From: an uncultured beta proteobacterium | GTDB taxonomy: Bacteria; Pseudomonadota; Gammaproteobacteria; Burkholderiales; Casimicrobiaceae | DNA: 64,000 nucleotides | Reading direction: 5' to 3' | NCBI GenBank assembly: GCA_963734575.1 | Contig: CAVTHT010000007.1 | Coordinates: forward strand, 160,549 to 224,548 | Shown here: one piece after another, positions 19,472 to 32,085 of the stretch | How positions within the stretch are numbered: the stretch's first letter is position 1 | Layout: each line of letters opens with the position of its first letter | The notes under the pieces: model-generated | Told to the model about the DNA's origin: nothing | The model's input: the letters and a program-made list of their open reading frames with translations, nothing else | The model's database searches: none | Position numbers and translations under genes: made by a program

Positions 19472-19548
19472 TGGTGGCGAACCAGGGACTCGAACCCCGG
19501 ACCAAAGGATTATGATTCCTCTGCTCTAACCAGCTGAGCTAGTTCGCC
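19472..19548 (-). tRNA. tRNA with a CAT anticodon (elongator Met or Ile2/lysidine).
   Basis: GGCGAAC-TA-GCTCAGCTGGTTAGAGC-A-GAGGA-ATCATAA-TCCTT-TGGTC-CGGGGTTCGAGTCCCTG-GTTCGCC-ACCA folds as a cloverleaf: 7-bp acceptor stem, U33, CAT anticodon, A37 and an encoded CCA end. Confidence 0.85.
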
Positions 19549-19597: not shown

Positions 19598-20422
19598 GTG
19601 ATCCTCCGCTTCGTCACCTCATCCGCCCGCCCACCCGCTATCCCTTCCGTGCTTCTCGACTGGCTGCCCGACGCACCGTGGCACGTGCTGGCGCTGCTGC
19701 CCCTGGTGATCCTGATCGCCTACACGGTGTTCGGCGCGACGGGCTTCGGCTCGTCGATCATCGCCGTGCCGGCTCTGGCGCACGCGTTTCCGCTGACTTT
19801 CGCCGTGCCGCTCGTGACCACGCTCGACTGCGCCGCAACCACCACGGCCAGCTACCGGCAGTGGCGCCACGCGCGCTTCGACGAGTTCCGGCGCCTGTTG
19901 CCGGCGCTGCTGCTCGGCATCGTCACGGGCGCGACGCTCCTCGTGCGCCTGCCGCGCGCGCCTGCACTGCTGGCGCTCGGATCCTTCGTCACCGTCTACG
20001 GGGTCTACCTCCTGCTGGGCCCACGCCGGCGCGAGTCCATCCGCGGCTTCTGGGCGGTTCCGATCGGCTTCATTGGCGGGGTCTTCAGCGTGCTCTTCGG
20101 AACCGGCGGTCCGATCTACATGGTCTACCTGACCGCCCGCATCCACGACAAGTCCGAGCTGCGCGCGACCTCGTCGCTCCTGATCACGGTGAGCGTGTTG
20201 CTGCGGATGGCCGTGTTCATCGCATCGGGGCTGCTCATGCAGCGCGGACTGCTCGTGGCCGCCGGGCTCATGGTCCCGGTCATGTTCGCAGGCTACGCGT
20301 GCGGCAACCGATTGCACCACGCCCTGTCGCGCACCGGCGTGATGAAGATGATCGCGGGCCTGCTGATCGCGAACGGGACATTGCTGGTGGCGCGGGCGAT
20401 CTCCAGCCTGCGCGACAGCTGA
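19598..20422 (+). CDS. TSUP family (TauE/SafE) anion exporter.
   Basis: Seven to eight TM helices; FGATGFGSSIIAVPAL and GVFSVLFGTGGPIYMVYL are TSUP repeat signatures. Confidence 0.75.
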   Translation: MILRFVTSSARPPAIPSVLLDWLPDAPWHVLALLPLVILIAYTVFGATGFGSSIIAVPALAHAFPLTFAVPLVTTLDCAATTTASYRQWRHARFDEFRRLLPALLLGIVTGATLLVRLPRAPALLALGSFVTVYGVYLLLGPRRRESIRGFWAVPIGFIGGVFSVLFGTGGPIYMVYLTARIHDKSELRATSSLLITVSVLLRMAVFIASGLLMQRGLLVAAGLMVPVMFAGYACGNRLHHALSRTGVMKMIAGLLIANGTLLVARAISSLRDS

Positions 20423-20494
20423 GACTGGCGACGGCGAACGGACATTACCGATAGAATCCGGCGGCTAAACGCAATCGAGGACGGGCAACATCCG

Positions 20495-21430
20495 ATGGTC
20501 CATCAAGGCATGACGCTCAACATCTCGGCCGTCGAGCGCGAGACGGGACTCTCCAAGGACGTGCTCCGCATGTGGGAGCGCCGCTACGGCTTCCCTCGGC
20601 CCGGCCGTGACGACAACGGCGAGCGGCAGTACACGCCGACCGACGTCGCCAAGCTGCGCGCGGTGAAGCGGCTGATGGACATCGGCATGCGCCCGGGACG
20701 CCTGATCGAGCGCTCGCTCGACGAGCTGAACGCGCTGGCGGATTCGCGCGCCGAGCCGCGGCGCGAGGCGGTGGCCCCCGCGCTGGAGCGCGACGTCATC
20801 GGCCTCCTGCAGAACCACGACGTCGTGGGCCTCAAGCACGCGCTGGCCAATCTCATCATGCGCCAGGGCGTGCAGCGCTTCGTTCTCGAGACGGCCACGC
20901 CGCTCAATCGTGCGGTGGGCGACGGCTGGATGCGCGGCGAGCTGCAGATCTTCGAGGAGCACCTCTACACGGAGCAGATGCAGGCCGCGCTGCGCAGTGC
21001 CATCAATGGCTTTCCGCGGACCGACGGCACACCGAAGGTGATCCTCACCACGTTTCCGGGCGAGCAGCACGGCTTGGGGTTGCTGATGGTGGAAGCGGTG
21101 CTCGTCGCCGAAGGCGCGTTCTGCATCTCGCTCGGCGTCGAGACGCCGCTGGAGGAATTGCGCCGCGCCGCGATCGCGCACAAGGCGCACCTCGTTGCGC
21201 TCTCGTTCTCCGCGGGCTTCCCGGTGCGCCAGGCGAGCGACGGTCTTGCCGCGCTGCGTCGCGAGCTGCCGCCCACGACCACGCTGTGGGCGGGCGGCGA
21301 GATGACCCGCCGGATCCGCAAGACGCTGCCCGGGGTGGTGCTCATTCCGGAACTTGCCGCGACCGCGGGCGCGCTGAAGAGCTGGCGCGCGCACTGGGCG
21401 CAGGCAGCCCCGTTCCTCACGGGCGGCTGA
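20495..21430 (+). CDS. MerR-family regulator with a C-terminal cobalamin-binding domain (CarH/LitR-like).
   Basis: N-terminal MerR HTH (LNISAVERETGLSKDVLRMWERRYGFPRP). The C-terminal B12-binding fold has an E-x-H-x-x-G motif (FPGEQHGLGLLMVEAVL). Confidence 0.75.
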   Translation: MVHQGMTLNISAVERETGLSKDVLRMWERRYGFPRPGRDDNGERQYTPTDVAKLRAVKRLMDIGMRPGRLIERSLDELNALADSRAEPRREAVAPALERDVIGLLQNHDVVGLKHALANLIMRQGVQRFVLETATPLNRAVGDGWMRGELQIFEEHLYTEQMQAALRSAINGFPRTDGTPKVILTTFPGEQHGLGLLMVEAVLVAEGAFCISLGVETPLEELRRAAIAHKAHLVALSFSAGFPVRQASDGLAALRRELPPTTTLWAGGEMTRRIRKTLPGVVLIPELAATAGALKSWRAHWAQAAPFLTGG

Positions 21431-21472
21431 CGCGCCGCGCCATGGTGCCGGCGATGCGCGGATGAATCCGGC

Positions 21473-22433
21473 ATGACGACCGCCATCTCGCTCGCGATCG
21501 TGTTCCTCGGCGGGCTCGCGGCGTACCTGGCCTGGGCCGCTTCGGCGTGGCACTCCGGAGCGGATGCCCTGTGGCTCGCCGCGGGCGCGCTGCTGCTCTA
21601 CGGCGCGGTGTTCGGCGTCGTGACCGCCGCGTGGTTCGCCCTCGCATGGGTCTACCGCGTCCAGCGACCACGCGAGGTACAGCTCGGCATGCGCGCCACC
21701 CTGCGCCTCTTCTGGCGTGAATGGCTGACGCTCATGGGCTCCGGGCTGCGTATGGGCTTCGGCTGGTGGTTCATGCGCGAGCCCCGACCGCAGCGGGCAG
21801 CGGCGCCGGTGCTGCTCATCCATGGCGTGCTCTGTAACGCGGGCGTCTGGCTCGGTATGCGCGGCGCGCTGCACCGTCTCGGCATGGGTCCGGTGTACAC
21901 GATCACCTACGGCCCGCCGCTCGCGTCCATCGACGAATTCGCGACGCAGCTCGCGCGCAGCATCGAAGCCATCGTCGCCGCCACCGGGGCGCCGCGCGTG
22001 GCGCTCGTTGGCCACAGCATGGGCGGCCTCGTCGCCCGCGCCTACCTGCGCCGCTACGGCAGCGCTGCGCGTCGCGCGCGTGATCACCATCGGCACGCCG
22101 CATCGCGGCAGCGTGCATGCGTGGATGTTCCTCGGGAAAAGCCTCGCCCAGTTGCGGCCGGGCAACGCGTGGCTGCGGGAGCTCAATGACGCCTTGCCGA
22201 ACGACGTTCCGATGGTGTCGATCTGGTCCTGGCACGACTCGATGGTCGCGCCGCAGGATTCGGCCTGTCTCGACGGCGCACGCAACGTCGCCCTCGCCGG
22301 CATCGGTCACAACGCGCTGCTGCGCGAGCCGGAGGTGGCGCGCAGCGTCGTGGCCGCGACGAGCTGCGCGACGGCGCCGTGCCGCGAGCCGCGGACCGTG
22401 GCGGCGCGCTCTACCAGTGAATGCCCTGGGTGA
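21473..22433 (+). CDS. Alpha/beta-hydrolase lipase (LipA/PGAP1-like) with a frameshift at ~22065.
   Basis: N-terminal TM helices; PVLLIHGVLCNAGVW, the nucleophile elbow GHSMGG, then YLRRYGSA | ARVITIGTPHRGS in the next frame. The switch lies in 'cgcgtcgcgcgcgtg'. Confidence 0.7.
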
Positions 22434-24401
22434 GCTGCGCGAAAGCCATCTGCTCGGCGGAGAGCTGCTGTGGCCCTTCGCCTTGCTTGCGGCCTTGTGC
22501 AGCCGGCGAGTCGGGGAACATGTTGTAGGCGGTGTTGAGCAGGATCTGCGTGAGCTTCGGGCGCGATGGCGTGGCAGACCGCACCGAAGATGCCGAGGCG
22601 CGTGGCGATGCGCACGGGCTTGTAGACGATCGCCTCGGCCACGAGGTCCGCCGCCTGCTCGGGCGAGAGTGTCGGCACGTTCTCGTACATCTTCGTCGGC
22701 GCGATCATCGGCGTGCGCACGAGCGGCATGTTGATGGTCGTGAAGTTGATGCCCTTGTCGAGGAACTCCGATGCCGCGCACGCGGCGAACGAATCGAGGG
22801 CGGACTTCGAGGCGACGTAGGCGGAGAAGCGCGGCGCGTTCGACAGCACGCCGATGGACGAGATGTTGATCACGTGCCCGCGGCGCTGCTCGACCATCTT
22901 CGGCATGAACCCCAGGATGAGCCGCACGGCGCCGAAGTAGTTGAGCTGCATCGTGCGCTCGAAGTCGTGGAAGCGGTCGAGCGAGTTCATGATGCCGCGG
23001 CGGATCGAGCGCCCCGCGTTGTTGATGAGGTAGTCGCAGCCGCCGTGCTCGTCCAGCACGCGCGCCACGAGCGCGTCGCAGGACGCGAGGTCGGACAGGT
23101 CCGCGGTGTAGATCCAGGCCTTGCCGCCGAGCTTCTCGATCTCGGCCTTGGTCTCGAGGAGCTTCTCCTCGCCGCGCGCCACGAGGATCACGTGCGCGCC
23201 CGCCTCGGCGAGCCGCAGCGCGGTGGCACGCCCGATGCCCGACGACGAGCCGGTGACCACCGCCACGCGGCCCTTCACGCGCCCCGACAGCGAGCGGTCG
23301 ATGAAGAGGTCCGGATCGAGGTTGCGCTCCCAGTAGTCCCACAGTTTCGCGGCATAGGTCTGCGACGTGCGGCACGCTGATGCCCGAGCCCTTCAGCGCC
23401 TTCATCGCCTCGCGATTGTCGTAGCGCGTCGGCCAGTTGACGAACTGGAACACGTCGCGCGGAATGCCCAGGTCGGTGAGCACCGCTCGCAACATGCGCT
23501 TCACGGGCGACAGCGATCCCAGACCGTAAAGGATCGGCGCCGGGATGAAGCCGAACATGCGCGCGTTGAGGCGCATCGTCATCTGCGGCGCATGCGCGGC
23601 ACGCGCGAAGATGTTGAGCACTTCGCCGATACGGTGTGGTGCGGGATCCGTCAGGTGGAATGTCTTGCCGTCGAGCCCCTTCTTGTGGGCGATGTGGTCG
23701 AGCGCATCGGCGACGAAATCCACCGGCACGATGTTGATGCGCCCGCCTTCGATGCCGATCGTCGGCATCCACTGCGGCAGGGCCTTGCGCAGCTTCTGGA
23801 TGAGCTTGAAGAAGTAGTACGGGCCATCGATCTTGTCGATGTAGCCGGTCTTCGAATGCCCGACGACGAAGCCGGGACGATAGATGCGAAACGGCCGCTG
23901 GCATTCGCGCCGCACGATGCCCTCGGCCTCGTGCTTGGTGCGGAAGTAGGGATGGTCGAGCTCCTCGGCTTCCTCGAACATGTCCTCGCGGAACACGCCT
24001 TCGTAAAGTCCCGCTGCCGCGATGGAGCTCACGTGATGGAAGCAGCCGGCCTGCATGGCTTCGGCGAACTCGACCGCGTGCCGCGTGCCGTCGACGTTCG
24101 CGACCATCTGGTCCTCCGCGCTCGCGGCGAGATCGTAGATCGCCGCGAGATGGAAGAAGTGCCGGACCTTGCCCTTGAGCTTGCGCACGTCGGCATCGGA
24201 CACGCCGAGGCGCGGCCTGGCGAGGTCGCCGATGATCGGCACCACCTGGCGCTCGTCGGCGTTCCAGAACTCGCGCAGCGACGCAAGCTTGTCGAGCGAG
24301 CTCTTGCGCACCAGAACGTAGACGGTTTCCTGCCGCTCCAGCAGTCGTGCGACAAGGAATCGACCGATGAAGCCGGTCGCGCCGGTGACGAAATAGGGCA
24401 T
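22411..24401 (-). CDS. Two-domain fatty acyl-CoA reductase: an N-terminal NAD_binding_4 (male-sterility) domain and a C-terminal Acr1-like SDR. Frameshifts at ~23350 and ~22565.
   Basis: gaggag RBS. N-domain MPYFVTGATGFIGRFLV..HVSSIAA..YFRTKHEAE. Linker ..VADLCRE | LWDYWERNLDPDLFIDRSLSGRVKGRVAVVTGSSSGIGRA (SDR TGxxxGIG) ..NNAG..SAYVASK. The C-terminal tail is restored in a third frame (..ILLNTAYNMFPDSPAAQ..GIHW*). Confidence 0.75.
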
Positions 24402-24548: not shown

Positions 24549-25122
24549 ATGCTGAAGAAGGCGAAGGCGGAAGCGACGGCGGGACCGATGGAACAGGCGA
24601 AAGAGCTTTCGCAGTCGGTGCTCAATTCCTCGCACCAGATCTGGCTGGCAGGGCTCGGGGCTTTCGCCCGCGCGCAGCAGGAAGGCATGAAGGTGTTCGA
24701 GACGCTCGTGCAGCAGGGCCAGCAACTCGAATCGCGCACGCGGCAGGCCGCCGCAGACACCGCGACCGCTGCGCGCGGCGCCGCAAGCGCGAAGGCGAAG
24801 GAGATGCAGAAAATGGCCGGTGGAACGTGGGACAAGCTGGAGCAGGTTTTCGAGGACCGCGTCGCGCGGGCGCTGTCGAAGCTCGGCGTCTACACCCAGA
24901 ACGATGTCGAACGGCTGGCGCAGCGCGTCGACGCTCTGAGCGAGGCCGTGAACCGACTGATCAATGCGCAGGGGGGCACACCCGTGGCGGCGCCGAAGCG
25001 CGGCGGATCGTCCACCGCTAAACGGAGTGCCGCGAAGAAGGGCGCGCGGCGCACGACGAGCAAGTCGGCACGGCGCGCCTGCGCGCAAGACGCCACGCGC
25101 GACGAAGCAGGCCGCCAGCTGA
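24549..25122 (+). CDS. Phasin (PhaF/PhaI-like granule-associated protein) with a Lys/Ala-rich histone-like tail. Frameshift at ~25078.
   Basis: Phasin motif SSHQIWLAGLGAFARAQQEG. The tail ..AAPKRGGSSTAKRSAAKKGARRTTSKSARRA | PARKTPRATKQAAS* switches frame in 'cggcgcgcctgcgcgc'. A terminator follows directly. Confidence 0.7.
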
Positions 25123-25146
25123 GCGACAGCACCTGCCACGTGCAAA

Positions 25147-25170
25147 GGCCCGCATCGCGCGGGCCTTTTT
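25147..25170 (+). terminator. Rho-independent terminator after the phasin gene.
   Basis: ggcccgc-atcgc-gcgggcc followed by ttttt. Confidence 0.6.
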
Positions 25171-25188
25171 GCTGGGCGGGAGATCGCG

Positions 25189-25467
25189 TCAGTCGCGGTT
25201 GAGCCGCTCCACCTGCTTGATGTAGTTCTGCATGGCCTCGTCCTTGCTCATTCCCTTGACCTTGGTCCACGCGTCGTACTTCGCGCCACCCACGAAGTCG
25301 AACCCGCCGGGGCGCTCGCCCTTCACGTCGCCGTCGCTCGCCTGCTTGTAGAACGCATAGAGCTTGAGCATCGTGGCGTTGTCGGGTCGCTTCTTCGTCT
25401 GCTTGGCCGCGGCGGCCGCGGCCTCGAACTGCGCTTTGAGATCGGGTTTCTTCGCTGCGGTTGCCAT
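25189..25467 (-). CDS. Acyl-CoA-binding protein (ACBP).
   Basis: ..TMLKLYAFYKQASDGDVKGERPGGFDFVGGAKYDAWTKVKGMSKDEAMQNYI is the ACBP four-helix signature. Confidence 0.85.
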   Translation of the reverse strand: MATAAKKPDLKAQFEAAAAAAKQTKKRPDNATMLKLYAFYKQASDGDVKGERPGGFDFVGGAKYDAWTKVKGMSKDEAMQNYIKQVERLNRD

Positions 25468-25585: not shown

Positions 25586-27042
25586 ATGCCCCGGCGCGAA
25601 AAGATATCGGCCGTCGACACCGCCTGGCTGCGCATGGACCGGCCGGGCAATCCGATGATGATCTGCGGCGTGTTCCTGCTGCGCTCCCGCGTCCCGTTGG
25701 CGCGCCTGCGGCGCACGATCGACGAGCGGTTCCTGTGCTTCGGCCGTTTCCGGCAGCGCCCGGTCCAGGAGGCCGGCACGGCGTTCTGGGAAGACGACGG
25801 CACCTTCGACATCCGTCGGCACGTCGTCGAAACCACGCTGCCCGAACCTGCGGGGCAGGTCGAGTTGCAGCGGCTCGTCAGCACACTCGCCGGCACGCCG
25901 CTCGATCCCGACCGGCCCCTGTGGGAGTTTCATGCTCGTGCGCAACTATCAGCGCGGCAGTGCGCTGGTCGCGCGCATGCACCATTGCTACGCCGACGGG
26001 ATCGCGCTGATCCAGGTCGTGCTGTCGATGACCGATGCGGGCCGCAACGGTTCGCCCGCGCTCCCGCCGCCACCACGCCGCGCGTCGCGCGCCGAAGCGA
26101 GCGATGAGCTCAACTGGCTGACCCAGCCGCTCGACGGCGCCATGCGCCTTGCGACGAAGGTCGGCACCACGCTCGTCGAGAAGGGGGTCGAGCTCTGGGT
26201 CAACCCGCTCAAGGCCATCGATCTCGCACAGCAGGGCGGCGCCTTCGCGCGCGAGATCGCGAACCTCGCGCTGATGGGCGAAGACTCGCCGACGCGCTTC
26301 AAGTCCGTGCCGCGCGGGGAAAAGCACGTCGCCTGGGCGGAGCCCCTCGACCTCGACGAGGTGAAGGCGATCGGCAGGGCACTGGGCGCGTCGGTGAACG
26401 ATGTGCTCATATCGTGTGCCGTCGGCGCGCTGGGCGACTATCTGCGCAGCCGCAAGGATCCCGTGCGACGGGGTGATGATGCGCGCGCTGGTGCCGGTCA
26501 ACCTGCGCCCGCTGGCCCATGCGTACCGGCTCGGCAACCAGTTCGGCCTCGTGTTCCTCGATCTTCCCCTGGGGCTGCGCAATCCGGTCGAGCGGCTCTA
26601 TGCGGTGCGCGCCAACATGCGCGCGCTGAAGGACTCCTACCAGCCGGTGCTCACGCTCGGTTTGCTCGCGGCCGTGGGTGCCGGACCGAAGCTGCTGCAG
26701 GACCAGCTCCTCGAAACGCTGGCCAGGAATGCGACGGCCGTGATGACCAACGTGCCGGGACCGCAGCAGGAGCTCCATCTCGCCGGCAGCGCCGTCGACA
26801 CGATGATGTTCTGGGTTCCGCAATCCGGCAACATCGGCATGGGCGCGTCGATCATCTCCTACAACGGCCGCGTGCAGTTCGGACTCATCACGGATCGCGA
26901 GATCTGCCCGGAACCCGAGCGCATCGCCGCCGGCTTCAAGCGCGCATTCGATGCGCTGGTGCTGACGACGCTGATGGCACCATGGCCGTGGGAAGGTGAC
27001 CTCGATCCGGCGCTGGCCGCCGCTGCCGTCGGCGCGCACTGA
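25586..27042 (+). CDS. Wax ester synthase/acyl-CoA:diacylglycerol acyltransferase (WS/DGAT) with frameshifts at ~25932 and ~26460.
   Basis: N-terminus DTAWLRMDRPGNPMMICGVFLL. The catalytic HHxxxDG is present as MHHCYADG in a second frame. The C-terminus ..MRALVPVNLRP..AVMTNVPGP..ISYNGRVQFGLITD is in a third frame. Confidence 0.8.
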
Positions 27043-27837
27043 CGCCGCCGCGACGCGCTCAGCTCGAGCTCGGCGCGCGCGTGCTCGACGTCGAGCCGCT
27101 CCATCGCATCCATCGGCCGGCATTCGCTCGCAGCGCGGTAGAGCTTCTCGGCCTCGGCGAGGCGGCTCTTGCCGAACAGCAGCAGGAGGCCGTTGCCGTA
27201 TTCGGAGCGCGCGATTGCCGAATCCGGGTGCAGCTTCATCGCCGTCTCGTAGTGCTCGAGGGCAGCGTCCTTCTTGGCACCGTACGTCATGCCGCCGACG
27301 AGCGCACCGACCTTCGCGATCACTTCGGCCTGATAGGCGCCGTACGCGGTGTGCGCCTCCGCATGCTTGGGCTGCAGCGCGAGCGCCGTCGCGAGCGCGT
27401 CCTTGATCTTGCCGCCGAAGCCTTGCGCCAGCGCTTTCGCGACCGAGATCCCCTGGCCATAGCGGCCCAGGTTGAAGGCGTAGAGGTAGTGCGCGTTGGC
27501 GTCCTTGGGCGCCTCCGTGCGGCGGGCGTCCGCCCACTGTGCGGCCTCCTCGAACAGGGCGAGGCTGGTCTTCTCGTTCTTCTCCACGTAGTGCGCGTAG
27601 ATGCCCTGCGCCTTGATCGCGGCGTTCGTCGCGGCGCCGCCGGCTTTCCTCCCGTGCTCGACCGCGGCCGCGAATTCACCCGCATGGAAGAGGCGCCACG
27701 CATCGAGCGCGCCGGCGTTCTTCGGCAGCGGCTCGCAGTCGCCGCGGTGCAACCGTGCCCAGTGCTTCTTCAGCCCAGCAGGATCGTAGGCGTAGGTCGC
27801 GTCGGCATACGGGAATTTGCGTCCACTTCTTCGTCAT
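26859..27837 (-). CDS. Conserved hypothetical protein. The ends are uncertain: a probable N-terminal frameshift, and the 3' end overlaps WS/DGAT.
   Basis: The ATG overlaps the TetR stop (ATGA) and gives MTKKWTQIP. It continues in the +1 frame as ..YADATYAYDPAGLKKHWARLHRGDCEPLPKNAG..AIKAQGIYAHYVEKNEKTSLALFEEAAQW..HYETAMKLHPDSAIARSEYGNGLLL. The C-terminal ~60 aa look like read-through junk. Confidence 0.35.
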
Positions 27838-28523
27838 TGCACCACTCCGGCAGTGCCGCGCGAGCGATCTCCGGCGGCGAGGTAGTCGAGCGAGATGCGA
27901 GCGATGAGAGCGCGGGCGGCTCCGGCGAGATGCGGCTCGATCAGCATCAGCACGTGGTAGGCGACGCGATTGAGATCGGTCTCGGCGGCGTCGGGCCGGT
28001 CGGCGTGGCACAGCCGCTCGTACGTCATCGATTGCGTGATGTTCAGCATGGCATTGCGCGCGAGCGCTGCCAGAGCGCCGTCGTCGGCCGCGAGTTCACC
28101 GGCCTCGCGCATGCCGGTGAAGATCGCGCGCATCGTCGCCTCGCCGTCGCGGAGCAGGTGCGCGAACCGGGCGCCGAGTCGCCGCTGGCGCAGCGCCAGA
28201 TCCGTGACGTCGCGGTAGAGGAAGCGGTACGCCTGCATGCGCTCGAGCAGGAGATGGACGAGCAGCCAGAAGTCCTCGACGTCGACGCGACGGCCCTGCG
28301 GCGTGGTGAGCAGCGGCCGCACCTCGGCTTCGAACGCCGCGTACAGCTCGCCCACGATCTCGTCCTTGTTCCGGAAGTGATAGTAGAGATTCCCCGGGCT
28401 GATGTTCATCTCGTTGGCGATGTCCGCGGTGGTGATGCGCGGCTCGCCGAAACGATTGAAGAGGTCGAGGCTCGTTGCCAGGATGCGCTCGCGCGTGCGG
28501 CGAGGACGCTTGCGTTCGGCCAT
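27834..28523 (-). CDS. TetR/AcrR family transcriptional regulator.
   Basis: TRERILATSLDLFNRFGEPRITTADIANEMNISPGNLYYHFRNKDEIV is a TetR HTH. Confidence 0.85.
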   Translation of the reverse strand: MAERKRPRRTRERILATSLDLFNRFGEPRITTADIANEMNISPGNLYYHFRNKDEIVGELYAAFEAEVRPLLTTPQGRRVDVEDFWLLVHLLLERMQAYRFLYRDVTDLALRQRRLGARFAHLLRDGEATMRAIFTGMREAGELAADDGALAALARNAMLNITQSMTYERLCHADRPDAAETDLNRVAYHVLMLIEPHLAGAARALIARISLDYLAAGDRSRGTAGVVQ

Positions 28524-28622: not shown

Positions 28623-29894
28623 TCAGGCTGCGAGCCGCAGCCAGCGCTCGAGCGCGTCGAGCGTATGCGTGAGATCGCGCGTCGCCTGGCGCACGTCGGC
28701 CCGCGCCGCAGGCGAGGTGCGCAGTGGCCTCACGTCGGACAGCGCATCCTCGATGCGCCGGTGCATCGCGTCCAGACGATCGGTGCGCACCACGATGCCG
28801 TGTCGCGAGAGCACGGGCATGAGCTCGGGCACCCGTGCGAGCAGGCGCTGGCGCGTCTTGGCGAACGCGTGGGCGCAGAGCGTGCGGCGCTGCGCGTAGC
28901 TGAAAATGTTCGCGAAGAACATGTCGGCGTCCTCGCGGTCCGGCTCGAAGAGCACGACATCCGCGTCCGGATATTGCCGGTCGTACTTCTCCATCCCGAC
29001 GCGCATGCGCGAATGGATGATCGCGCGGAAGGTCTGCGACAGAACCAGGGGCAACCCACCCTGGTTCAGCTTCTCCATCGTCAGCCGTCCGCCACGGGTG
29101 GCTTTGCTCGCGTCGAAGGGCACGAGCGGATTGATGCACAGCAGGAGATCGACGCCCTGCTCGAGCGCCACGGAGGCGTGGAGCGTCTTGTTGAGCGCGC
29201 CGTCGACATAGTGCTCGCCGCCGATCTCGACGGGCGGAAACAGGCCAGGCAGCGCCGCGGAGGCCTCGATCGCGCGGGAGATGGGCACCGTGTCGAAGCC
29301 CGGACCGCCGAACGTCACCGAAGCGCCGGAGTCGAGATTCGTCGCGACCAGGAACAGCTTGTGGCGCAGCGCACGGAAGTCGTTGGTGCGTCCCGGCGCG
29401 GCGAACAGGTCGCCGAGGAAGGCATCGATGGCGCCGTTGTCGAAGAGGCCCGTCGGCATCGCGCGCGACAGCATCGACACCGACTCCATCAGGTTGTGAT
29501 GCAGCGGATCCCGCAGGTACTGCCACGTCACGCGTGCGACGAGGCGCGGCAGCGTGAACATCCGCTGCCTGAACTCGCGCAGGGCGGGCCGCAGGAAGAG
29601 CTCCGGAGTGAGCTTCGCGTCGGCGCTGTCGGCGATGAACAGCCGGTACATCTGCGCCGGCGACAGTCCGTTCGCCAACGCTGCCGCAACGAAGCTGCCC
29701 GACGACACGCCGACATAGACGTCGAGCTCGTTGAACGCGATGCCCTCGAGCGAGTCGCTCAGCGCCAGCAGCGCGCCGACCTCGTAGATGCCGCCCAGCG
29801 GACCGCCGCCCGCCAGAGCGAGACCGACGCGCGATGATGCAGCGCCTCGGGCGCGCGACGATGCTGCGCGCCCGATCACCCTCGTCTCCCGCAT
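28623..29894 (-). CDS. Patatin-like phospholipase/lipase.
   Basis: GLALAGGGPLGGIYEVGAL (oxyanion hole), GVSSGS (GxSxG) and YVDGAL (catalytic Asp). Confidence 0.8.
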   Translation of the reverse strand: MRETRVIGRAASSRARGAASSRVGLALAGGGPLGGIYEVGALLALSDSLEGIAFNELDVYVGVSSGSFVAAALANGLSPAQMYRLFIADSADAKLTPELFLRPALREFRQRMFTLPRLVARVTWQYLRDPLHHNLMESVSMLSRAMPTGLFDNGAIDAFLGDLFAAPGRTNDFRALRHKLFLVATNLDSGASVTFGGPGFDTVPISRAIEASAALPGLFPPVEIGGEHYVDGALNKTLHASVALEQGVDLLLCINPLVPFDASKATRGGRLTMEKLNQGGLPLVLSQTFRAIIHSRMRVGMEKYDRQYPDADVVLFEPDREDADMFFANIFSYAQRRTLCAHAFAKTRQRLLARVPELMPVLSRHGIVVRTDRLDAMHRRIEDALSDVRPLRTSPAARADVRQATRDLTHTLDALERWLRLAA

Positions 29895-29924: not shown

Positions 29925-30392
29925 TTACGCGCGGGCTGCAGTGCGCTTCTTCGCGCGGGTCTTGCTGGTGGCGCGCTTGGCCGGCCCCTTGGTTGCACGC
30001 TTCGCGACGGCCTTGCGACGCTTCGCAGCGGCGGCAGTCGTGGGAAGCGCGACCTTTGGCAGCGAACGCGGCAGGGTTTCCTTGACGAACAGCGTGGCCG
30101 AATCGGCCGCCTGGCGCACGGTGCTTTGCACGGTGGCGCGGGTTTGCTTCCACAACGCGTTGGCTCGGGTCATGGACGCTTCGACCTGGTCGCCGACGTA
30201 ACGGATGGCGCGCGACTCGACGACCGTGCCTTCCTTCACCAGCGTGCGGAACGTGTTGCCGGCCTCGGCCTGGATCCAGTCGCGGCTGACGACAGCGGCG
30301 CCCAGTCCGGCGAGCCATACCTGGCGCGATGCGGCCAGCGCGGCTCCGGAGAGCTCGGTGGGTTTGTGTTTGAGCGTGGCTTGCAGACGCAT
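29925..30392 (-). CDS. Phasin family protein with a C-terminal Lys/Ala-rich (histone H1-like) tail.
   Basis: aggag RBS; MRLQATLKHKPTELSGAALAASRQVWLAGLGAAVVS (phasin motif) ..PTTAAAAKRRKAVAKRATKGPAKRATSKTRAKKRTAARA. Confidence 0.75.
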   Translation of the reverse strand: MRLQATLKHKPTELSGAALAASRQVWLAGLGAAVVSRDWIQAEAGNTFRTLVKEGTVVESRAIRYVGDQVEASMTRANALWKQTRATVQSTVRQAADSATLFVKETLPRSLPKVALPTTAAAAKRRKAVAKRATKGPAKRATSKTRAKKRTAARA

Positions 30393-30471
30393 TTTGTACT
30401 CCTGCGGTGATGAGAGGCTCGCTTTGCCGGCGAGTGAACTCACTCTACGCCGCACCGTTAGAGCAAACACC

Positions 30472-32085
30472 CTAATCGTGCAGCGGGCGCATCGTCCGCG
30501 CGAGGCCATCCGCGAGGCGTGCGCAGATGCCGTAGATCGAGAGCTGCGGATTGGCGCCCACGGAGGTCGGGAAGAGCGATCCGTCCATCACGTACAGGTT
30601 CGTCGCATGATGATGCCGACCGTGCAGGTCCACGACCGCGTGCGCCGGGTCGGGTCCGAGTGCGCATCCGCCCATCACGTGCGCGCTCACCACCGGCGTG
30701 TGCAATGGTGCGAGTGCAAAGGCGGCGATGCCCGTGCGCGCGTCGGACCACGTGCGAAAGGCGATGCCTTCTCCGTGCACCGGCATGACGCTCATCGCGC
30801 CCGCAGCGAACTGGATCTCGGCCATGCTGGCGAAGGCGCGCCGCGCACCCTCCCAGACATACGGGGTGAGCGGATAGTCCAGTACCGGCGTGCCGTCGTC
30901 GCGCAGACGGACAATGCCGCCGGCGCTTTCCGGATGGAACCCGTCGCGCAGCAATGCGAGCAGCACTTGCATGCGCGGCAGCTGGCGCATCCACGCTGCG
31001 TGTGCCGCGCCGTGATTGGGCAGGGTGATCGCGGCGAGCACCGGATGCACGGGAGGCGCTTCCAGCTTGTAGCCCATGGGTCCATCGAGGGCGACGCTGT
31101 CGAGGAAGTGATCGGTGTAGATGGACTGCGGGGCGCCGGCGTACGCCGCGACGGTGTCGCGCATCAGCGCTGCGGACACGACCACCGGGTGCAGGAAGGT
31201 GCGCTTGCCGACGAGACCGTGGGGATCCGGCAACGCACTGCGCAGCAGCAGCGCAGGCGTGCCCATCGCGCCTGCCGCACTGACGAAGGCCTGCGCATGC
31301 ACGGTGATGCGACGCTGCGTCGGCCTCACGCCCGCCGCGTCCAGTGCCACGCAATGCAGCGCGACCACGCGGTCGCCGCGTGCTTCCAGGCGCTGCGCGC
31401 GGGTGCGCGTGAGCAGGGTGGCCCCGCGCTCGAGCGCTGCGGGAATCGTGGTGACCAGCATGGACTGCTTGGCATTGACGGGGCAGCCCACGCCGCAATA
31501 GCCGAGGTCGAGGCAACCCTTGACGTTGCGCGCGATGGATGCCGTCGGGATCCCCAAGGCGGACGCGCCGCGCGCGAGGACACTGTTGTTCTCGTTGGGT
31601 GTGGCGCTCCACGGTCCGATGGCGAGGCGCGCCTCCATCCGCTCGAACCAGGGTGCGAGCTCTGCAGTCCCGTACCCACGTACGCCATGGATGCGGGCCC
31701 AGTGCTCGAGGGTCCGCGGCGGCGTGCGGAAGGAGCTCGTCCAGTTGACGGTCGTCCCGCCGCCGACGCAACGCCCCTGCAAAATGTTGATCGCCTTGTC
31801 CGCGGTCTTGCGCGCGGCCGATTCCTGGTACAGGTCGGGATAGGCCTCCGCTTCGAGCATGCGGAAGTCGGCGGTGCTGCGCAGCGGCCCTTCCTCGATC
31901 AGCACCACCTTGAGGCCGCGCTCGCTCAGGATTTCCGCGGCGGTGCCGCCGCCCGCACCTGTGCCGACGATCGCGACATCGCATTCCAGCGTGAGATCGG
32001 CGCCGCCCGCGCTGGCATCGACGACGTTCCACCGCGACGCAGCGTCGCGATAGGCATCGGGGGCAGCGCGGTTGATGGCGATCAT
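30472..32085 (-). CDS. GMC family FAD-dependent oxidoreductase, large subunit.
   Basis: CDVAIVGTGAGGGTAAEILSERGLKVVLIEEG (FAD-binding GxGxxG) and the C-terminal GMC signature ..HVMGGCALG..NLYVMDGSLFPTSVGANP. The start overlaps the small-subunit stop (ATGA). Confidence 0.85.
   Translation of the reverse strand: MIAINRAAPDAYRDAASRWNVVDASAGGADLTLECDVAIVGTGAGGGTAAEILSERGLKVVLIEEGPLRSTADFRMLEAEAYPDLYQESAARKTADKAINILQGRCVGGGTTVNWTSSFRTPPRTLEHWARIHGVRGYGTAELAPWFERMEARLAIGPWSATPNENNSVLARGASALGIPTASIARNVKGCLDLGYCGVGCPVNAKQSMLVTTIPAALERGATLLTRTRAQRLEARGDRVVALHCVALDAAGVRPTQRRITVHAQAFVSAAGAMGTPALLLRSALPDPHGLVGKRTFLHPVVVSAALMRDTVAAYAGAPQSIYTDHFLDSVALDGPMGYKLEAPPVHPVLAAITLPNHGAAHAAWMRQLPRMQVLLALLRDGFHPESAGGIVRLRDDGTPVLDYPLTPYVWEGARRAFASMAEIQFAAGAMSVMPVHGEGIAFRTWSDARTGIAAFALAPLHTPVVSAHVMGGCALGPDPAHAVVDLHGRHHHATNLYVMDGSLFPTSVGANPQLSIYGICARLADGLARTMRPLHD

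What the first reader, a model, noticed from the sequence alone, without database searches (positions are those of the whole stretch)
20495..22433. B12-binding MerR regulator (CarH/LitR-like) directly upstream of a lipase: possible light- or cobalamin-controlled lipid metabolism
The regulator combines a MerR HTH with a C-terminal cobalamin-binding domain that has the E-x-H-x-x-G motif, the architecture of the photoreceptors CarH and LitR. Those regulators normally control carotenoid genes. Here the next gene, 43 bp downstream on the same strand, is a membrane-anchored lipase, and the wax-ester genes follow convergently.
Basis: inference. Interest (0 to 1): 0.55.

Follow-up and report, generated by a model that had tools for sequence, protein, structure and literature searches.

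The report
CarH-type B12 regulator plus lipase
This is a real vitamin-B12-dependent, CarH/LitR-type light-sensor regulator sitting in front of a membrane-anchored lipase. The pairing is conserved across a whole family of uncultured soil betaproteobacteria, but this genome has lost the regulator's DNA-binding sites, so light control of the lipase here is doubtful.

Summary
[quoted passage not shown] It carries every sequence signature of AdoCbl photoreceptors: W145-x9-E155-H156, E190-x-H192-xx-G195...S237...G267G268, plus GxxW/EH/GxxH/GxxxP. Its best solved relative is Thermus CarH (E 7e-31).

A lipase with two N-terminal hydrophobic helices and an intact Ser-Asp-His triad starts 42 nt downstream. 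The window sequence carries a 1-nt insertion near 22070, probably an assembly error.

In 67 of 67 related genomes (Casimicrobiaceae-like MAGs) the lipase lies on the regulator's strand within three genes. Most relatives also have a divergent furan-fatty-acid/cfa/folE2/GSH-peroxidase operon. They carry a 15-bp palindromic operator (TTTGTCCWGGACAAA) over the -35 box and at the start codon of the regulator operon.

This window and its closest relatives have lost both the divergent operon and every operator. The best match in 64 kb scores 9.8 bits, against more than 19 bits for real sites. No relative has an operator in front of the wax-ester genes.

Light-controlled lipid remodelling is therefore well supported for the family. 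Direct light control of the lipase or the wax-ester genes is not supported in this genome.

Verdict: new member of a known kind; moderate interest.

The parts
20495..21430 (+). CarH/LitR class I-type regulator (311 aa; alternative start at 20510). MerR wHTH, four-helix bundle and Rossmann B12 domain.
   Evidence: Pfam; PDB phmmer to TtCarH, E 7e-31; 15-ortholog alignment with invariant key residues; dN/dS 0.09 against L084.
20519..20692 (+). MerR-type HTH DNA-binding domain (aa 9-66).
   Evidence: Pfam MerR_1, 53.2 bits. The sequence is nearly invariant across orthologs that do have the operator.
20927..20962 (+). W145-x9-E155-H156 motif, which caps the adenosyl group in CarH. The residue after Trp is Met146 where TtCarH has His132.
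   Evidence: Regex; alignments.
21062..21298 (+). Cobalamin-binding motif E190-x-H192-x2-G195-x41-S237-x-S239-x27-G267-G268. H192 is the predicted lower axial ligand.
   Evidence: aligned to TtCarH H177.
20423..20494 (+). Regulator upstream intergenic region. It has a -10-like TAGAAT at 20452-20457 but none of the family's palindromic operators.
   Evidence: PWM scores below 0. TAGAAT is conserved in L084, L004, L005 and L095. No consensus sigma-70 promoter was found.
21431..21472 (+). 42-nt gap between the regulator and the lipase, with no terminator-like site. Co-transcription is likely.
21473..22069 (+). Lipase, N-terminal part (aa 1-199): two hydrophobic helices, an Arg-rich linker, and the G-H-S182-M-G nucleophile elbow (Ser codon at 22016-22018).
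22071..22433 (+). Lipase, C-terminal part in the next frame, after a 1-nt insertion near 22070. It contains catalytic D255 (WSWHDSMV) and H279 (GIGHNALL).
   Evidence: dN/dS after the shift is 0.37.
22414..24401 (-). Fatty acyl-CoA reductase (NAD_binding_4 + SDR), convergent with the lipase. Two frameshifts (about 22560 and 23363). A conserved neighbour, not a regulon member.
   Evidence: no operator nearby in any relative.
24549..25202 (+). Phasin-like protein.
   Evidence: tblastn; Pfam of orthologs.
25189..25467 (-). Acyl-CoA-binding protein.
25586..27042 (+). Wax ester synthase/DGAT, with two frameshifts (about 25920 and 26463).
27834..28523 (-). TetR-family regulator of the lipid-storage cluster. 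It is the more plausible local regulator of FAR and WS/DGAT (inference).
28623..29894 (-). Patatin-like phospholipase.
19598..20422 (+). TauE/SafE-family exporter, directly upstream of the regulator. In most relatives it lies beyond the divergent ufa-type operon, so it marks a deletion of about 8 kb.
   Evidence: synteny map.

Best explanation
The regulator is a genuine class I CarH/LitR-type repressor.

By inference from the CarH paradigm, it binds adenosylcobalamin between its four-helix bundle (W145/E155/H156) and its Rossmann domain (H192). It oligomerises in the dark and binds operators that overlap a sigma-70 promoter. UV-to-green light cleaves the Co-C bond and releases it from DNA.

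In its family (Casimicrobiaceae-like betaproteobacteria) the ancestral locus is a photo-oxidative-stress lipid regulon. One arm is a divergent operon: GSH peroxidase, folE2, ufaD-like, ufaO-like (DUF1365), cfa-like, chalcone-isomerase-like, MFS, DUF3833 and SDR genes. The other arm is the regulator's own operon: regulator, then optionally a photolyase-related DPRP protein, optionally a ferritin-like diiron protein, then the membrane-anchored lipase. Both arms share one intergenic region that carries 15-bp palindromes (TTTGTCCWGGACAAA) over the -35 box and at the start codon.

The lipase is predicted to face the cytoplasm and to deacylate membrane lipids, for example photo-oxidised or furan-modified acyl chains. 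This is inference.

In the lineage of this window, a deletion between TauE and the regulator removed the divergent operon, and the operators have decayed. The regulator and lipase survive as a pair behind an operator-less promoter (-10 TAGAAT). The lipase is therefore probably no longer repressed by the regulator. The regulator is still under strong purifying selection and presumably acts on unlinked operators outside the window.

The wax-ester/lipid-body cluster (FAR, phasin, ACBP, WS/DGAT, TetR, patatin) is a conserved neighbour, not a target.
For: Regulator identity:
- Domains and motifs.
- Key residues invariant in 15 orthologs.
- The published definition of CarH homologs is Wx9EH plus the B12 motif (PMC8156234). 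The published light-response signature is GxxW/EH/GxxH/GxxxP (PMC11796333). All are present.

Synteny:
- 519 relatives in species-representative genomes.
- The lipase is co-directional within three genes in 67 of 67 loci, and FAR follows in 62 of 67.
- Loci chosen from the lipase side also have the regulator upstream; in L095 the wax-ester cluster is absent.

Operator:
- 125 of 127 hits of at least 15 bits fall in the intergenic region upstream of the regulator.
- 73 of 81 loci have at least one site and 50 have both.
- The distal half-site is followed by 17 nt and then TACAAT in 56 of 65 loci. GTCAAY lies 4 nt before the proximal palindrome in 38 of 43, giving an 11-bp TGTC periodicity.
- The same palindrome lies upstream of homologs at 45-50% identity in Azoarcus sp. 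KH32C (with the divergent ufa-type operon), Eleftheria terrae and Comamonas endophytica.
- The site layout (-35 box plus 5'-UTR) matches footprinted class II LitR sites (PMC9758184).

UfaD/UfaO assignment: PMC7380195.

Loss in this window:
- No operator in 64 kb.
- Window, L084, L004 and L005 form one operator-less clade. Its sister L006 keeps only the distal site.
- No ufa, folE2, GSHPx or DPRP homolog in the window.

Selection: regulator dN/dS 0.09 and lipase dN/dS 0.27.
Against: - Nothing here was tested biochemically. AdoCbl binding, light response and operator binding are inferred from sequence and conservation.
- The residue equivalent to TtCarH His132 is Met146 here and E/A/T in other betaproteobacterial homologs. 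A 2023 study reports that His132 is needed for light-driven tetramer disassembly in TtCarH (PMC10442372). The photoresponse may therefore differ or be weaker.
- Score against the NCBIfam CarH equivalog is 136.6, against a cut-off of 400.
- A non-canonical or low-affinity operator in the window cannot be excluded by a PWM.
- Only 64 kb of the genome is visible, so unlinked targets are conjecture.
- The substrate and topology of the lipase are inferred only.
Confidence: 0.6

Rival explanations
1. One reading: in this genome the regulator directly represses the downstream lipase, and perhaps the convergent wax-ester genes. Repression depends on AdoCbl and is relieved by light.
For: - The two genes are on the same strand with a 42-nt gap and no terminator.
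- The regulator-lipase linkage is universal in relatives.
- Most relatives place operators on the promoter of this operon.
Against: - The window has no operator-like site: the best anywhere scores 9.8 bits, and the upstream region scores below 0.
- The same absence is seen in L084, L004, L005, L044 and L095.
- No relative has an operator near FAR, phasin, ACBP or WS/DGAT.
- The wax-ester cluster has its own TetR regulator.
- In L095, L004 and L005 the pair exists without the wax-ester cluster.
Confidence: 0.15
2. The protein is a cobalamin-responsive regulator but not a working photoreceptor. It lacks the His that switches onto cobalt after photolysis, so it may report B12 availability, or stay assembled in the light.
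For: - Met146 replaces TtCarH His132, and other betaproteobacterial homologs have E/A/T there.
- The H132A variant of TtCarH stays largely tetrameric after illumination (PMC10442372).
Against: - Wx9EH and the full light-response signature are present and invariant.
- Bound AdoCbl is photolabile in any case.
- In relatives the regulon is a typical light/singlet-oxygen set: photolyase-related protein, folE2, ufaD/ufaO/cfa and GSH peroxidase. It matches the light-induced genes of Pseudomonas LitR (PMC9758184).
- An earlier report found that H132A does disassemble (cited).
Confidence: 0.12
3. The locus is a decaying remnant. After the divergent operon and the operators were lost, the lipase is becoming, or already is, a pseudogene, and the regulator is an orphan.
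For: - The window's lipase has a frameshift.
- L084 and L006 carry different 1-nt insertions in the same gene.
- Lipase dN/dS (0.27) is about three times that of neighbouring genes.
Against: - Frameshifts are common in this window in conserved genes: FAR x2, WS/DGAT x2, the FNT transporter and TctC, with at least 10 candidates between 10 and 34 kb. The related long-read MAG contigs show them too, for example split TauE and FAR calls in L001. Assembly error is the simpler reading.
- The sequence after the shift is still under purifying selection (dN/dS 0.37) with the catalytic Asp and His intact.
- Short-read MAGs of the same arrangement have intact lipases (L005/P0133, L004/P0138, L095/P0135).
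- Regulator dN/dS is 0.09.
Confidence: 0.1

Closest known systems
Thermus thermophilus CarH (LitR), PDB 5C8D/5C8E/5C8F; class I LitR/CarH AdoCbl photoreceptor-repressors
   Same: - Same three-part architecture over the full length (E 7e-31).
- Wx9EH, the ExHxxG...S...GG motif and the GxxW/EH/GxxH/GxxxP signature are all present.
- In relatives: a divergent promoter region, autoregulated, with an operator overlapping the -35 box.
- In relatives: TGTC/GACA half-sites with 11-bp spacing, reminiscent of the nAnnTnnACAn repeats.
   Different: - About 35% identity, and below the NCBIfam CarH equivalog cut-off.
- TtCarH His132 is Met146 here.
- The operator is a 15-bp perfect palindrome used at two positions about 65 bp apart, rather than three or four tandem direct repeats.
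- The regulon is lipid modification (FuFA-type genes, lipase) plus folE2, GSH peroxidase and DPRP, not carotenoid genes.
- In this window there is no operator at all.
Class II LitR of Pseudomonas (PplR1 of P. putida, PmlR2 of P. mendocina) and class III LitR of Burkholderia multivorans
   Same: - MerR-type repressors of a light regulon that includes photolyase/cryptochrome-like genes, folE and the furan-fatty-acid synthase UfaM (PMC9758184).
- Two binding sites, one over the -35 box and one between the transcription start and the start codon.
   Different: - Class II proteins keep only the four-helix bundle and are switched by a short LOV protein. Class III proteins have an unrelated C-terminus. 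The protein here has the complete AdoCbl-binding module.
- Their half-site is TGTACA-N12-TGTACA; here it is TGTCCWGGACA.
- The text I could read does not list a lipase in their regulons. The two J. Bacteriol. papers were not available.
Rhodobacter sphaeroides RSP1091-1087 operon (UfaD, UfaO) and UfaM: furan fatty acid synthesis under the sigmaE-ChrR singlet-oxygen response
   Same: The divergent operon in relatives has the same core: an FAD oxidoreductase (UfaD-like), DUF1365 (UfaO-like), a CFA-synthase-like methylase and an SDR.
   Different: - Controlled here by a B12 photoreceptor-type repressor instead of an ECF sigma/anti-sigma pair.
- This operon is absent from the window.
Bacillus subtilis LipA/EstA (Pfam Lipase_2) and Burkholderia/Pseudomonas family I lipases
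   Same: Minimal alpha/beta-hydrolase core, G/A-H-S-M-G nucleophile elbow, aligned Asp and His (E 1e-10 to 5e-12).
   Different: - Those enzymes are secreted. The protein here has about 100 extra N-terminal residues with two hydrophobic helices and no signal peptide-like end.
- The catalytic domain is predicted to be cytoplasmic.
- The substrate is unknown.

Membership tests
CarH/LitR class I (AdoCbl-dependent photoreceptor-repressor) | N-terminal MerR-type winged HTH | tested here: met
   Pfam MerR_1, aa 9-66, 53.2 bits against a cut-off of 21.6. Aligned to the TtCarH DNA-binding domain and to the CarA DNA-binding domain 2jml.
CarH/LitR class I (AdoCbl-dependent photoreceptor-repressor) | [quoted passage not shown] | tested here: met
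   W145-MRGELQIFE-E155-H156. Aligned to TtCarH W131/E141/H142. Invariant in 15 orthologs and in the 9-sequence alignment that includes Thermus.
CarH/LitR class I (AdoCbl-dependent photoreceptor-repressor) | B12-binding motif ExHx2Gx41SxV/Tx22-27GG with the lower axial His | tested here: met
   E190-Q-H192-GL-G195-x41-S237-F-S239-x27-G267-G268. One conservative deviation: Ser239 for Val/Thr. Pfam B12-binding, 37.5 bits against 32.1.
CarH/LitR class I (AdoCbl-dependent photoreceptor-repressor) | SignatureFinder light-response signature GxxW, EH, GxxH, GxxxP (PMC11796333) | tested here: met
   G142-W145, E155-H156, G189-H192 and G214-P218 (definition).
CarH/LitR class I (AdoCbl-dependent photoreceptor-repressor) | His next to the Trp (TtCarH His132), which becomes the upper axial ligand after photolysis | tested here: not met
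   Met146 here, invariant in the clade. E, A or T in the Azoarcus, Eleftheria, Comamonas and Caballeronia homologs. This is a mechanistic feature of TtCarH rather than part of the family definition.
CarH/LitR class I (AdoCbl-dependent photoreceptor-repressor) | Large operator overlapping the promoter of the regulated genes | tested here: not met
   Window: no site. Relatives: met in 73 of 81 loci, with the -35 overlap in 56 of 65.
CarH/LitR class I (AdoCbl-dependent photoreceptor-repressor) | AdoCbl binding, dark-state oligomer, light-induced disassembly and loss of DNA binding | not testable with these tools
   Needs purified protein: UV-vis, size-exclusion chromatography and EMSA in dark and light.
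NCBIfam NF052513 'HTH-type transcriptional repressor CarH' (equivalog) | Whole-protein score at or above the curated cut-off (400 bits) | tested here: not met
   136.6 bits, E 9.5e-40. Same family, but not an equivalog by NCBI's rule.
Lipase_2 / LipA-like alpha/beta-hydrolase | Ser-Asp-His triad with a G/A-x-S-x-G elbow, and a Pfam score above cut-off | tested here: met
   Pfam Lipase_2, 27.5 bits against 20.3. S182 and D255 are invariant, and H279 is present in 12 of 13 orthologs; the exception, P0202, is frameshifted. Aligned to the LipA triad. This holds only after correcting the frameshift at about 22070.
Lipase_2 / LipA-like alpha/beta-hydrolase | Secreted enzyme with a signal peptide | tested here: not met
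   Two hydrophobic segments (aa 1-26 and 31-61), then an Arg-rich linker. Conserved in 13 orthologs.
Regulon of this regulator | Operator in front of the wax-ester genes (FAR, phasin, ACBP, WS/DGAT) | tested here: not met
   None of the 127 operator hits in 80 loci lies there, and there is none in the window.

The most novel reading that the evidence does not exclude
In a large, uncultured family of soil betaproteobacteria, an AdoCbl photoreceptor drives light-induced membrane-lipid remodelling. It lacks the His132 ligand switch and uses palindromic operators. Light would turn on furan-fatty-acid synthesis together with a cytoplasm-facing membrane lipase that removes or releases modified acyl chains. 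The window's clade would then be a natural rewiring, in which the photoreceptor and lipase are kept but uncoupled from the local operators.
Probability: 0.3. Interest if true: 0.6.

Novelty: new member of a known kind. Interest (0 to 1): 0.35.

Why it matters
B12-based photoreceptors are best known for switching on carotenoid genes.

Here a complete CarH-type protein occurs in at least 519 species-level genomes of uncultured soil and sludge betaproteobacteria. It is tied to membrane-lipid chemistry instead: furan-fatty-acid genes, a diiron protein and a membrane lipase. That broadens what B12 photoreception is used for. It also nominates a conserved lipase as a candidate repair or remodelling enzyme for photo-oxidised membranes.

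The clade-wide replacement of TtCarH His132, and the palindromic operator, are testable points for the current mechanistic model of CarH.

The operator-bearing and operator-less relatives form a natural comparison for asking which genes really need light control.

For this particular window the practical message is caution. The gene pair looks like a light switch, but the switch's DNA sites are gone.

Tried and rejected
- Exact-sequence look-ups of the window's regulator (311-aa and 306-aa forms) and of its truncated lipase found no contig record. A cluster look-up only showed that the window's own gene calls sit on a 352,548-bp contig.
- The two key J. Bacteriol. papers on class II and class III LitR regulons were not available. 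I could not check whether they list an alpha/beta-hydrolase. Two literature searches found no report of a light-induced lipase under CarH/LitR control. This is absence in the held library only.
- I searched for the lipase outside the family in annotated plasmids. Only a 39%-identical Ralstonia solanacearum megaplasmid homolog turned up, with no regulator nearby. This was uninformative.
- I looked for an alternative conserved motif in the operator-less promoters of the window, L084, L004, L005 and L095. Only the -10-like TAGAAT is shared.
- The sigma-70 and terminator consensus scan of 20200-22700 found nothing. This is uninformative in a 68% GC genome.
- Rfam found no cobalamin riboswitch or other regulatory RNA in the window, only a tRNA.
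- I considered that the wax-ester cluster is part of the regulon and rejected it on operator distribution and on loci where the pair exists without the cluster.
- I considered that the lipase frameshift marks a true pseudogene. I judge this less likely than assembly error but have not excluded it.
- Structure prediction was not run. Full-length sequence homology to solved CarH made it unnecessary.
Full report
**What is in the sequence**

The window is about 68% GC. ORF 20495-21430 (+) encodes 311 aa. Pfam hits above gathering score are MerR_1 (aa 9-66), B12-binding_2 (aa 104-167) and B12-binding (aa 181-276).

A phmmer search of PDB sequences aligns aa 8-268 to Thermus thermophilus CarH (3whp/5c8d, E about 7e-31). 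It places W145, E155, H156 and H192 on CarH W131, E141, H142 and H177.

Regular-expression checks give:
- W145-x9-E155-H156.
- The complete cobalamin motif E190-x-H192-x2-G195-x41-S237-x-S239-x27-G267-G268, where Ser239 replaces the usual Val/Thr.
- The four elements of the published light-response signature: G142xxW145, E155H156, G189xxH192 and G214xxxP218.

The presence of Wx9EH plus the B12 motif is the published definition of a CarH homolog (PMC8156234). The GxxW/EH/GxxH/GxxxP signature comes from PMC11796333. In the LitR nomenclature this is class I, the AdoB12-based class. It is not the Pseudomonas class II, which keeps only the four-helix bundle, nor the Burkholderia class III (PMC9758184).

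The protein scores 136.6 bits against the NCBIfam CarH equivalog, below its 400-bit cut-off. It is a family member, not an equivalog of the Thermus/Myxococcus proteins.

**The lipase**

It starts at 21473, 42 nt after the regulator's stop codon, with no terminator-like site between them. In the window it is split between two frames, 21473-22069 and 22071-22433. The cause is a single inserted base relative to four relatives.

The joined 319-aa protein has two hydrophobic segments (about aa 1-26 and 31-61), followed by an Arg-rich stretch. Then comes a minimal alpha/beta-hydrolase domain. Its closest solved relatives are B. subtilis LipA/EstA and the Burkholderia/Pseudomonas lipases (E 5e-12 to 1e-10). 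S182 (GHSMG) and D255 (WSWHDSMV) are invariant among 13 orthologs. H279 (GxGHNALL) is conserved in 12 of the 13; the exception, P0202, is frameshifted at its C-terminus.

By the positive-inside rule the catalytic domain would face the cytoplasm. This is inference.

**Are the frameshifts real?**

FAR carries two and WS/DGAT carries two. A scan for codon-position GC bias finds at least 10 same-strand frame switches between 10 and 34 kb. The close relatives L084 and L006, which are long-read MAG contigs, have different single-base insertions in the same lipase gene. Short-read MAGs with the same gene order have intact lipases (P0133, P0138, P0135).

Between the window and L084 the lipase has dN/dS 0.27: 0.23 before the shift and 0.37 after it. 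The regulator has 0.09 and neighbouring genes 0.08-0.10.

Assembly error is the simplest reading. Recent pseudogenisation is not excluded.

**Relatives and synteny**

The regulator has thousands of homologs. The best 120 are 71-93% identical. Where a source gives a taxon, they are labelled Casimicrobiaceae, Aromatoleum or simply Betaproteobacteria MAGs. Several already carry source annotations such as 'light-induced transcriptional regulator' or 'CarH'.

A scan of one genome per species found 519 relatives, of which 80 loci were fetched. A tblastn map of 20 reference proteins onto these loci shows one recurrent layout:

- Divergent arm: <-SDR <-DUF3833 <-MFS <-chalcone-isomerase-like <-CFA-synthase-like <-DUF1365 <-FAD oxidoreductase [<-folE2] [<-GSH peroxidase].
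- Regulator arm: regulator-> [DPRP photolyase-related->] [ferritin-like diiron->] lipase->.
- Neighbouring cluster: <-FAR, phasin->, <-ACBP, WS/DGAT->, <-RMD1/TPR, <-TetR, <-patatin.

In all 67 loci with at least 3.5 kb downstream, the lipase is co-directional and within three genes of the regulator. It is directly adjacent in 27, lies behind the diiron gene in 39, and has DPRP as well in 6. FAR follows in 62.

Sampling from the lipase side gave the same answer in three of three cases. In L095 the order is TauE, regulator, lipase, and the pair is followed by a PHA-granule regulator and beta-oxidation genes instead of the wax-ester cluster. L004 and L005 also lack that cluster within 9 kb. The regulator-lipase pair is therefore the stable unit.

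The FAD oxidoreductase and the DUF1365 protein correspond to the UfaD and UfaO types of the Rhodobacter furan-fatty-acid pathway (PMC7380195). The gene set overlaps the light-induced genes reported for Pseudomonas LitR: photolyase, UfaM, FolE and CryB (PMC9758184).

**Operator**

Aligning the regions upstream of the regulator revealed a 15-bp palindrome, consensus TTTGTCC(T/A)GGACAAA, at two fixed positions. A PWM built from these sites gave the following results:

- It finds 127 hits of at least 15 bits in 80 loci. Of these, 125 lie in the intergenic region upstream of the regulator. None lies near the lipase, the diiron gene, DPRP, FAR, phasin, ACBP or WS/DGAT.
- 73 of 81 loci have at least one site and 50 have both.
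- The right half of the distal site (xGACA) is followed by exactly 17 nt and a TACAAT-like hexamer in 56 of 65 loci, so it coincides with the -35 box.
- The proximal site abuts the start codon. It is preceded at 4 nt by GTCAAY in 38 of 43 loci, giving TGTC elements 11 bp apart.

This spacing recalls the 11-bp nAnnTnnACAn repeats of CarH. The layout of one site over the -35 box and one in the 5'-UTR recalls the footprinted class II LitR sites.

The same palindrome, with the same layout, lies upstream of homologs at 45-50% identity in cultured betaproteobacteria. These are Azoarcus sp. KH32C (with the same divergent ufa-type operon but no lipase), Eleftheria terrae and Comamonas endophytica.

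The operator assignment rests on conservation only. No binding was tested.

**This window is different**

No operator-like sequence exists anywhere in the 64 kb:
- The best PWM score is 9.8 bits, against 19-27 bits for real sites.
- There are no matches with two or fewer mismatches.
- There are eight matches with three mismatches, against 4.3 expected by chance, and none lies near the locus.
- The 72-nt region upstream of the regulator scores below 0 bits.

None of the divergent-operon genes or DPRP is in the window. Instead, TauE lies directly upstream of the regulator. In other genomes TauE lies beyond the far end of the divergent operon. This is the signature of a deletion of about 8 kb.

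The window, L084 (92% identical regulator), L004 and L005 form one operator-less clade in a neighbour-joining tree. The next branch, L006, has the deletion but still keeps the distal site. L044 and L095 show the same arrangement on other branches. All of them keep a -10-like TAGAAT.

The DNA-binding domain is essentially unchanged, and the regulator is under strong purifying selection. Together these argue that the protein still works and still recognises the same sequence. If so, its sites must lie outside the window. This is inference.

The order of events is deletion first, then operator decay. That suggests selection for repression acted mainly through the divergent operon, not through the regulator-lipase operon.

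**Mechanism, with its status**

Shown by sequence:
- The architecture, the cofactor-binding residues and the conserved operon structure.
- The conserved palindromes over the promoter in relatives.
- Their absence here.

Inferred from the CarH/LitR paradigm:
- The AdoCbl-bound oligomer represses in the dark.
- Light cleaves the Co-C bond and releases the repressor.

One departure: the residue after the motif Trp, His132 in TtCarH, is Met146 in this clade and E/A/T in other betaproteobacterial homologs. In TtCarH, His132 ligates cobalt after photolysis, and one recent study finds it necessary for tetramer disassembly (PMC10442372).

Speculative:
- The lipase deacylates photo-damaged or furan-modified membrane lipids.

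**Comparison and verdict**

The regulator is a new member of the class I CarH/LitR family in a poorly studied lineage. Its regulon resembles the light and singlet-oxygen regulons of Pseudomonas, Burkholderia and Rhodobacter rather than carotenoid operons.

The conserved lipase partner has not, as far as I could find, been described in the papers I could read.

Light-linked lipid metabolism is a good description of the family. In this genome, however, the cis elements needed for light control of the lipase are missing, and the wax-ester genes are neighbours rather than targets.

Noticed in passing
window 10000-34000 (e.g. ~16645, ~17640, ~22070, ~22560, ~23363, ~25920, ~26463): There are many single-base frame switches inside conserved genes: the FNT transporter, TctC, the lipase, FAR x2 and WS/DGAT x2. 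In total there are at least 10 candidates, and none of the inspected sites lies in a long homopolymer. This looks like long-read assembly error. The public annotation of this contig calls a truncated 238-aa lipase (P0121).
   Followed up: partly
window 20930-20932 (Met146); alignment A2: The residue equivalent to TtCarH His132, the upper axial ligand after photolysis, is Met in all Casimicrobiaceae-like orthologs. It is E, A or T in the Azoarcus, Eleftheria, Comamonas and Caballeronia homologs. The whole betaproteobacterial branch lacks this His.
   Followed up: partly
L085:10373-10387, L086:10361-10375: An operator-like sequence (CGTGTCCTGGACAAA, 18.8 bits) lies inside the regulator's own coding region in Azoarcus and Eleftheria. 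It is formed by the codons for the conserved peptide FVLDT. It could be a coincidence of coding or an internal site. The window has FVLET with different codons and no match.
   Followed up: no
window 19472-19548 (-): A tRNA-Met gene lies immediately upstream of TauE. In L024 and L029 what looks like a tRNA gene (recognised by eye from the sequence, not scanned) lies directly upstream of the regulator, where the divergent operon is also missing. tRNA genes may mark the rearrangement points.
   Followed up: no
window 29925-30509 (-): A second phasin-like ORF lies just beyond the patatin gene (32% identity to the first phasin; its ortholog in L084 has a Pfam Phasin hit). The lipid-storage cluster is therefore flanked by two phasins.
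   Followed up: no
L095:5150-14924 (GCA_030946875.1) and L096: In this genome the TauE, regulator, lipase trio is followed by a PHA-granule regulator, a TetR, a FadE-type acyl-CoA dehydrogenase, a thiolase and a FadB-like gene, instead of the wax-ester cluster. The lipase sits next to lipid-turnover genes in both arrangements.
   Followed up: partly
L002:10677-11504 and orthologs (between the regulator and the lipase in 39 of 67 loci; absent from the window): A 275-aa ferritin-like diiron protein with a weak Pfam FA_desaturase_2 hit (30.2 bits), a weak AurF hit, and a weak PDB hit to M. tuberculosis DesA2 (E 0.006). It often overlaps the lipase start codon. It could be an acyl-chain-modifying oxygenase or desaturase that works with the lipase.
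   Followed up: partly
L004:2367-2381: An isolated 14.6-bit operator-like site (ATTGTCATGCACATA) lies 7.6 kb upstream of the regulator in an operator-less genome. Its gene context was not examined.
   Followed up: no
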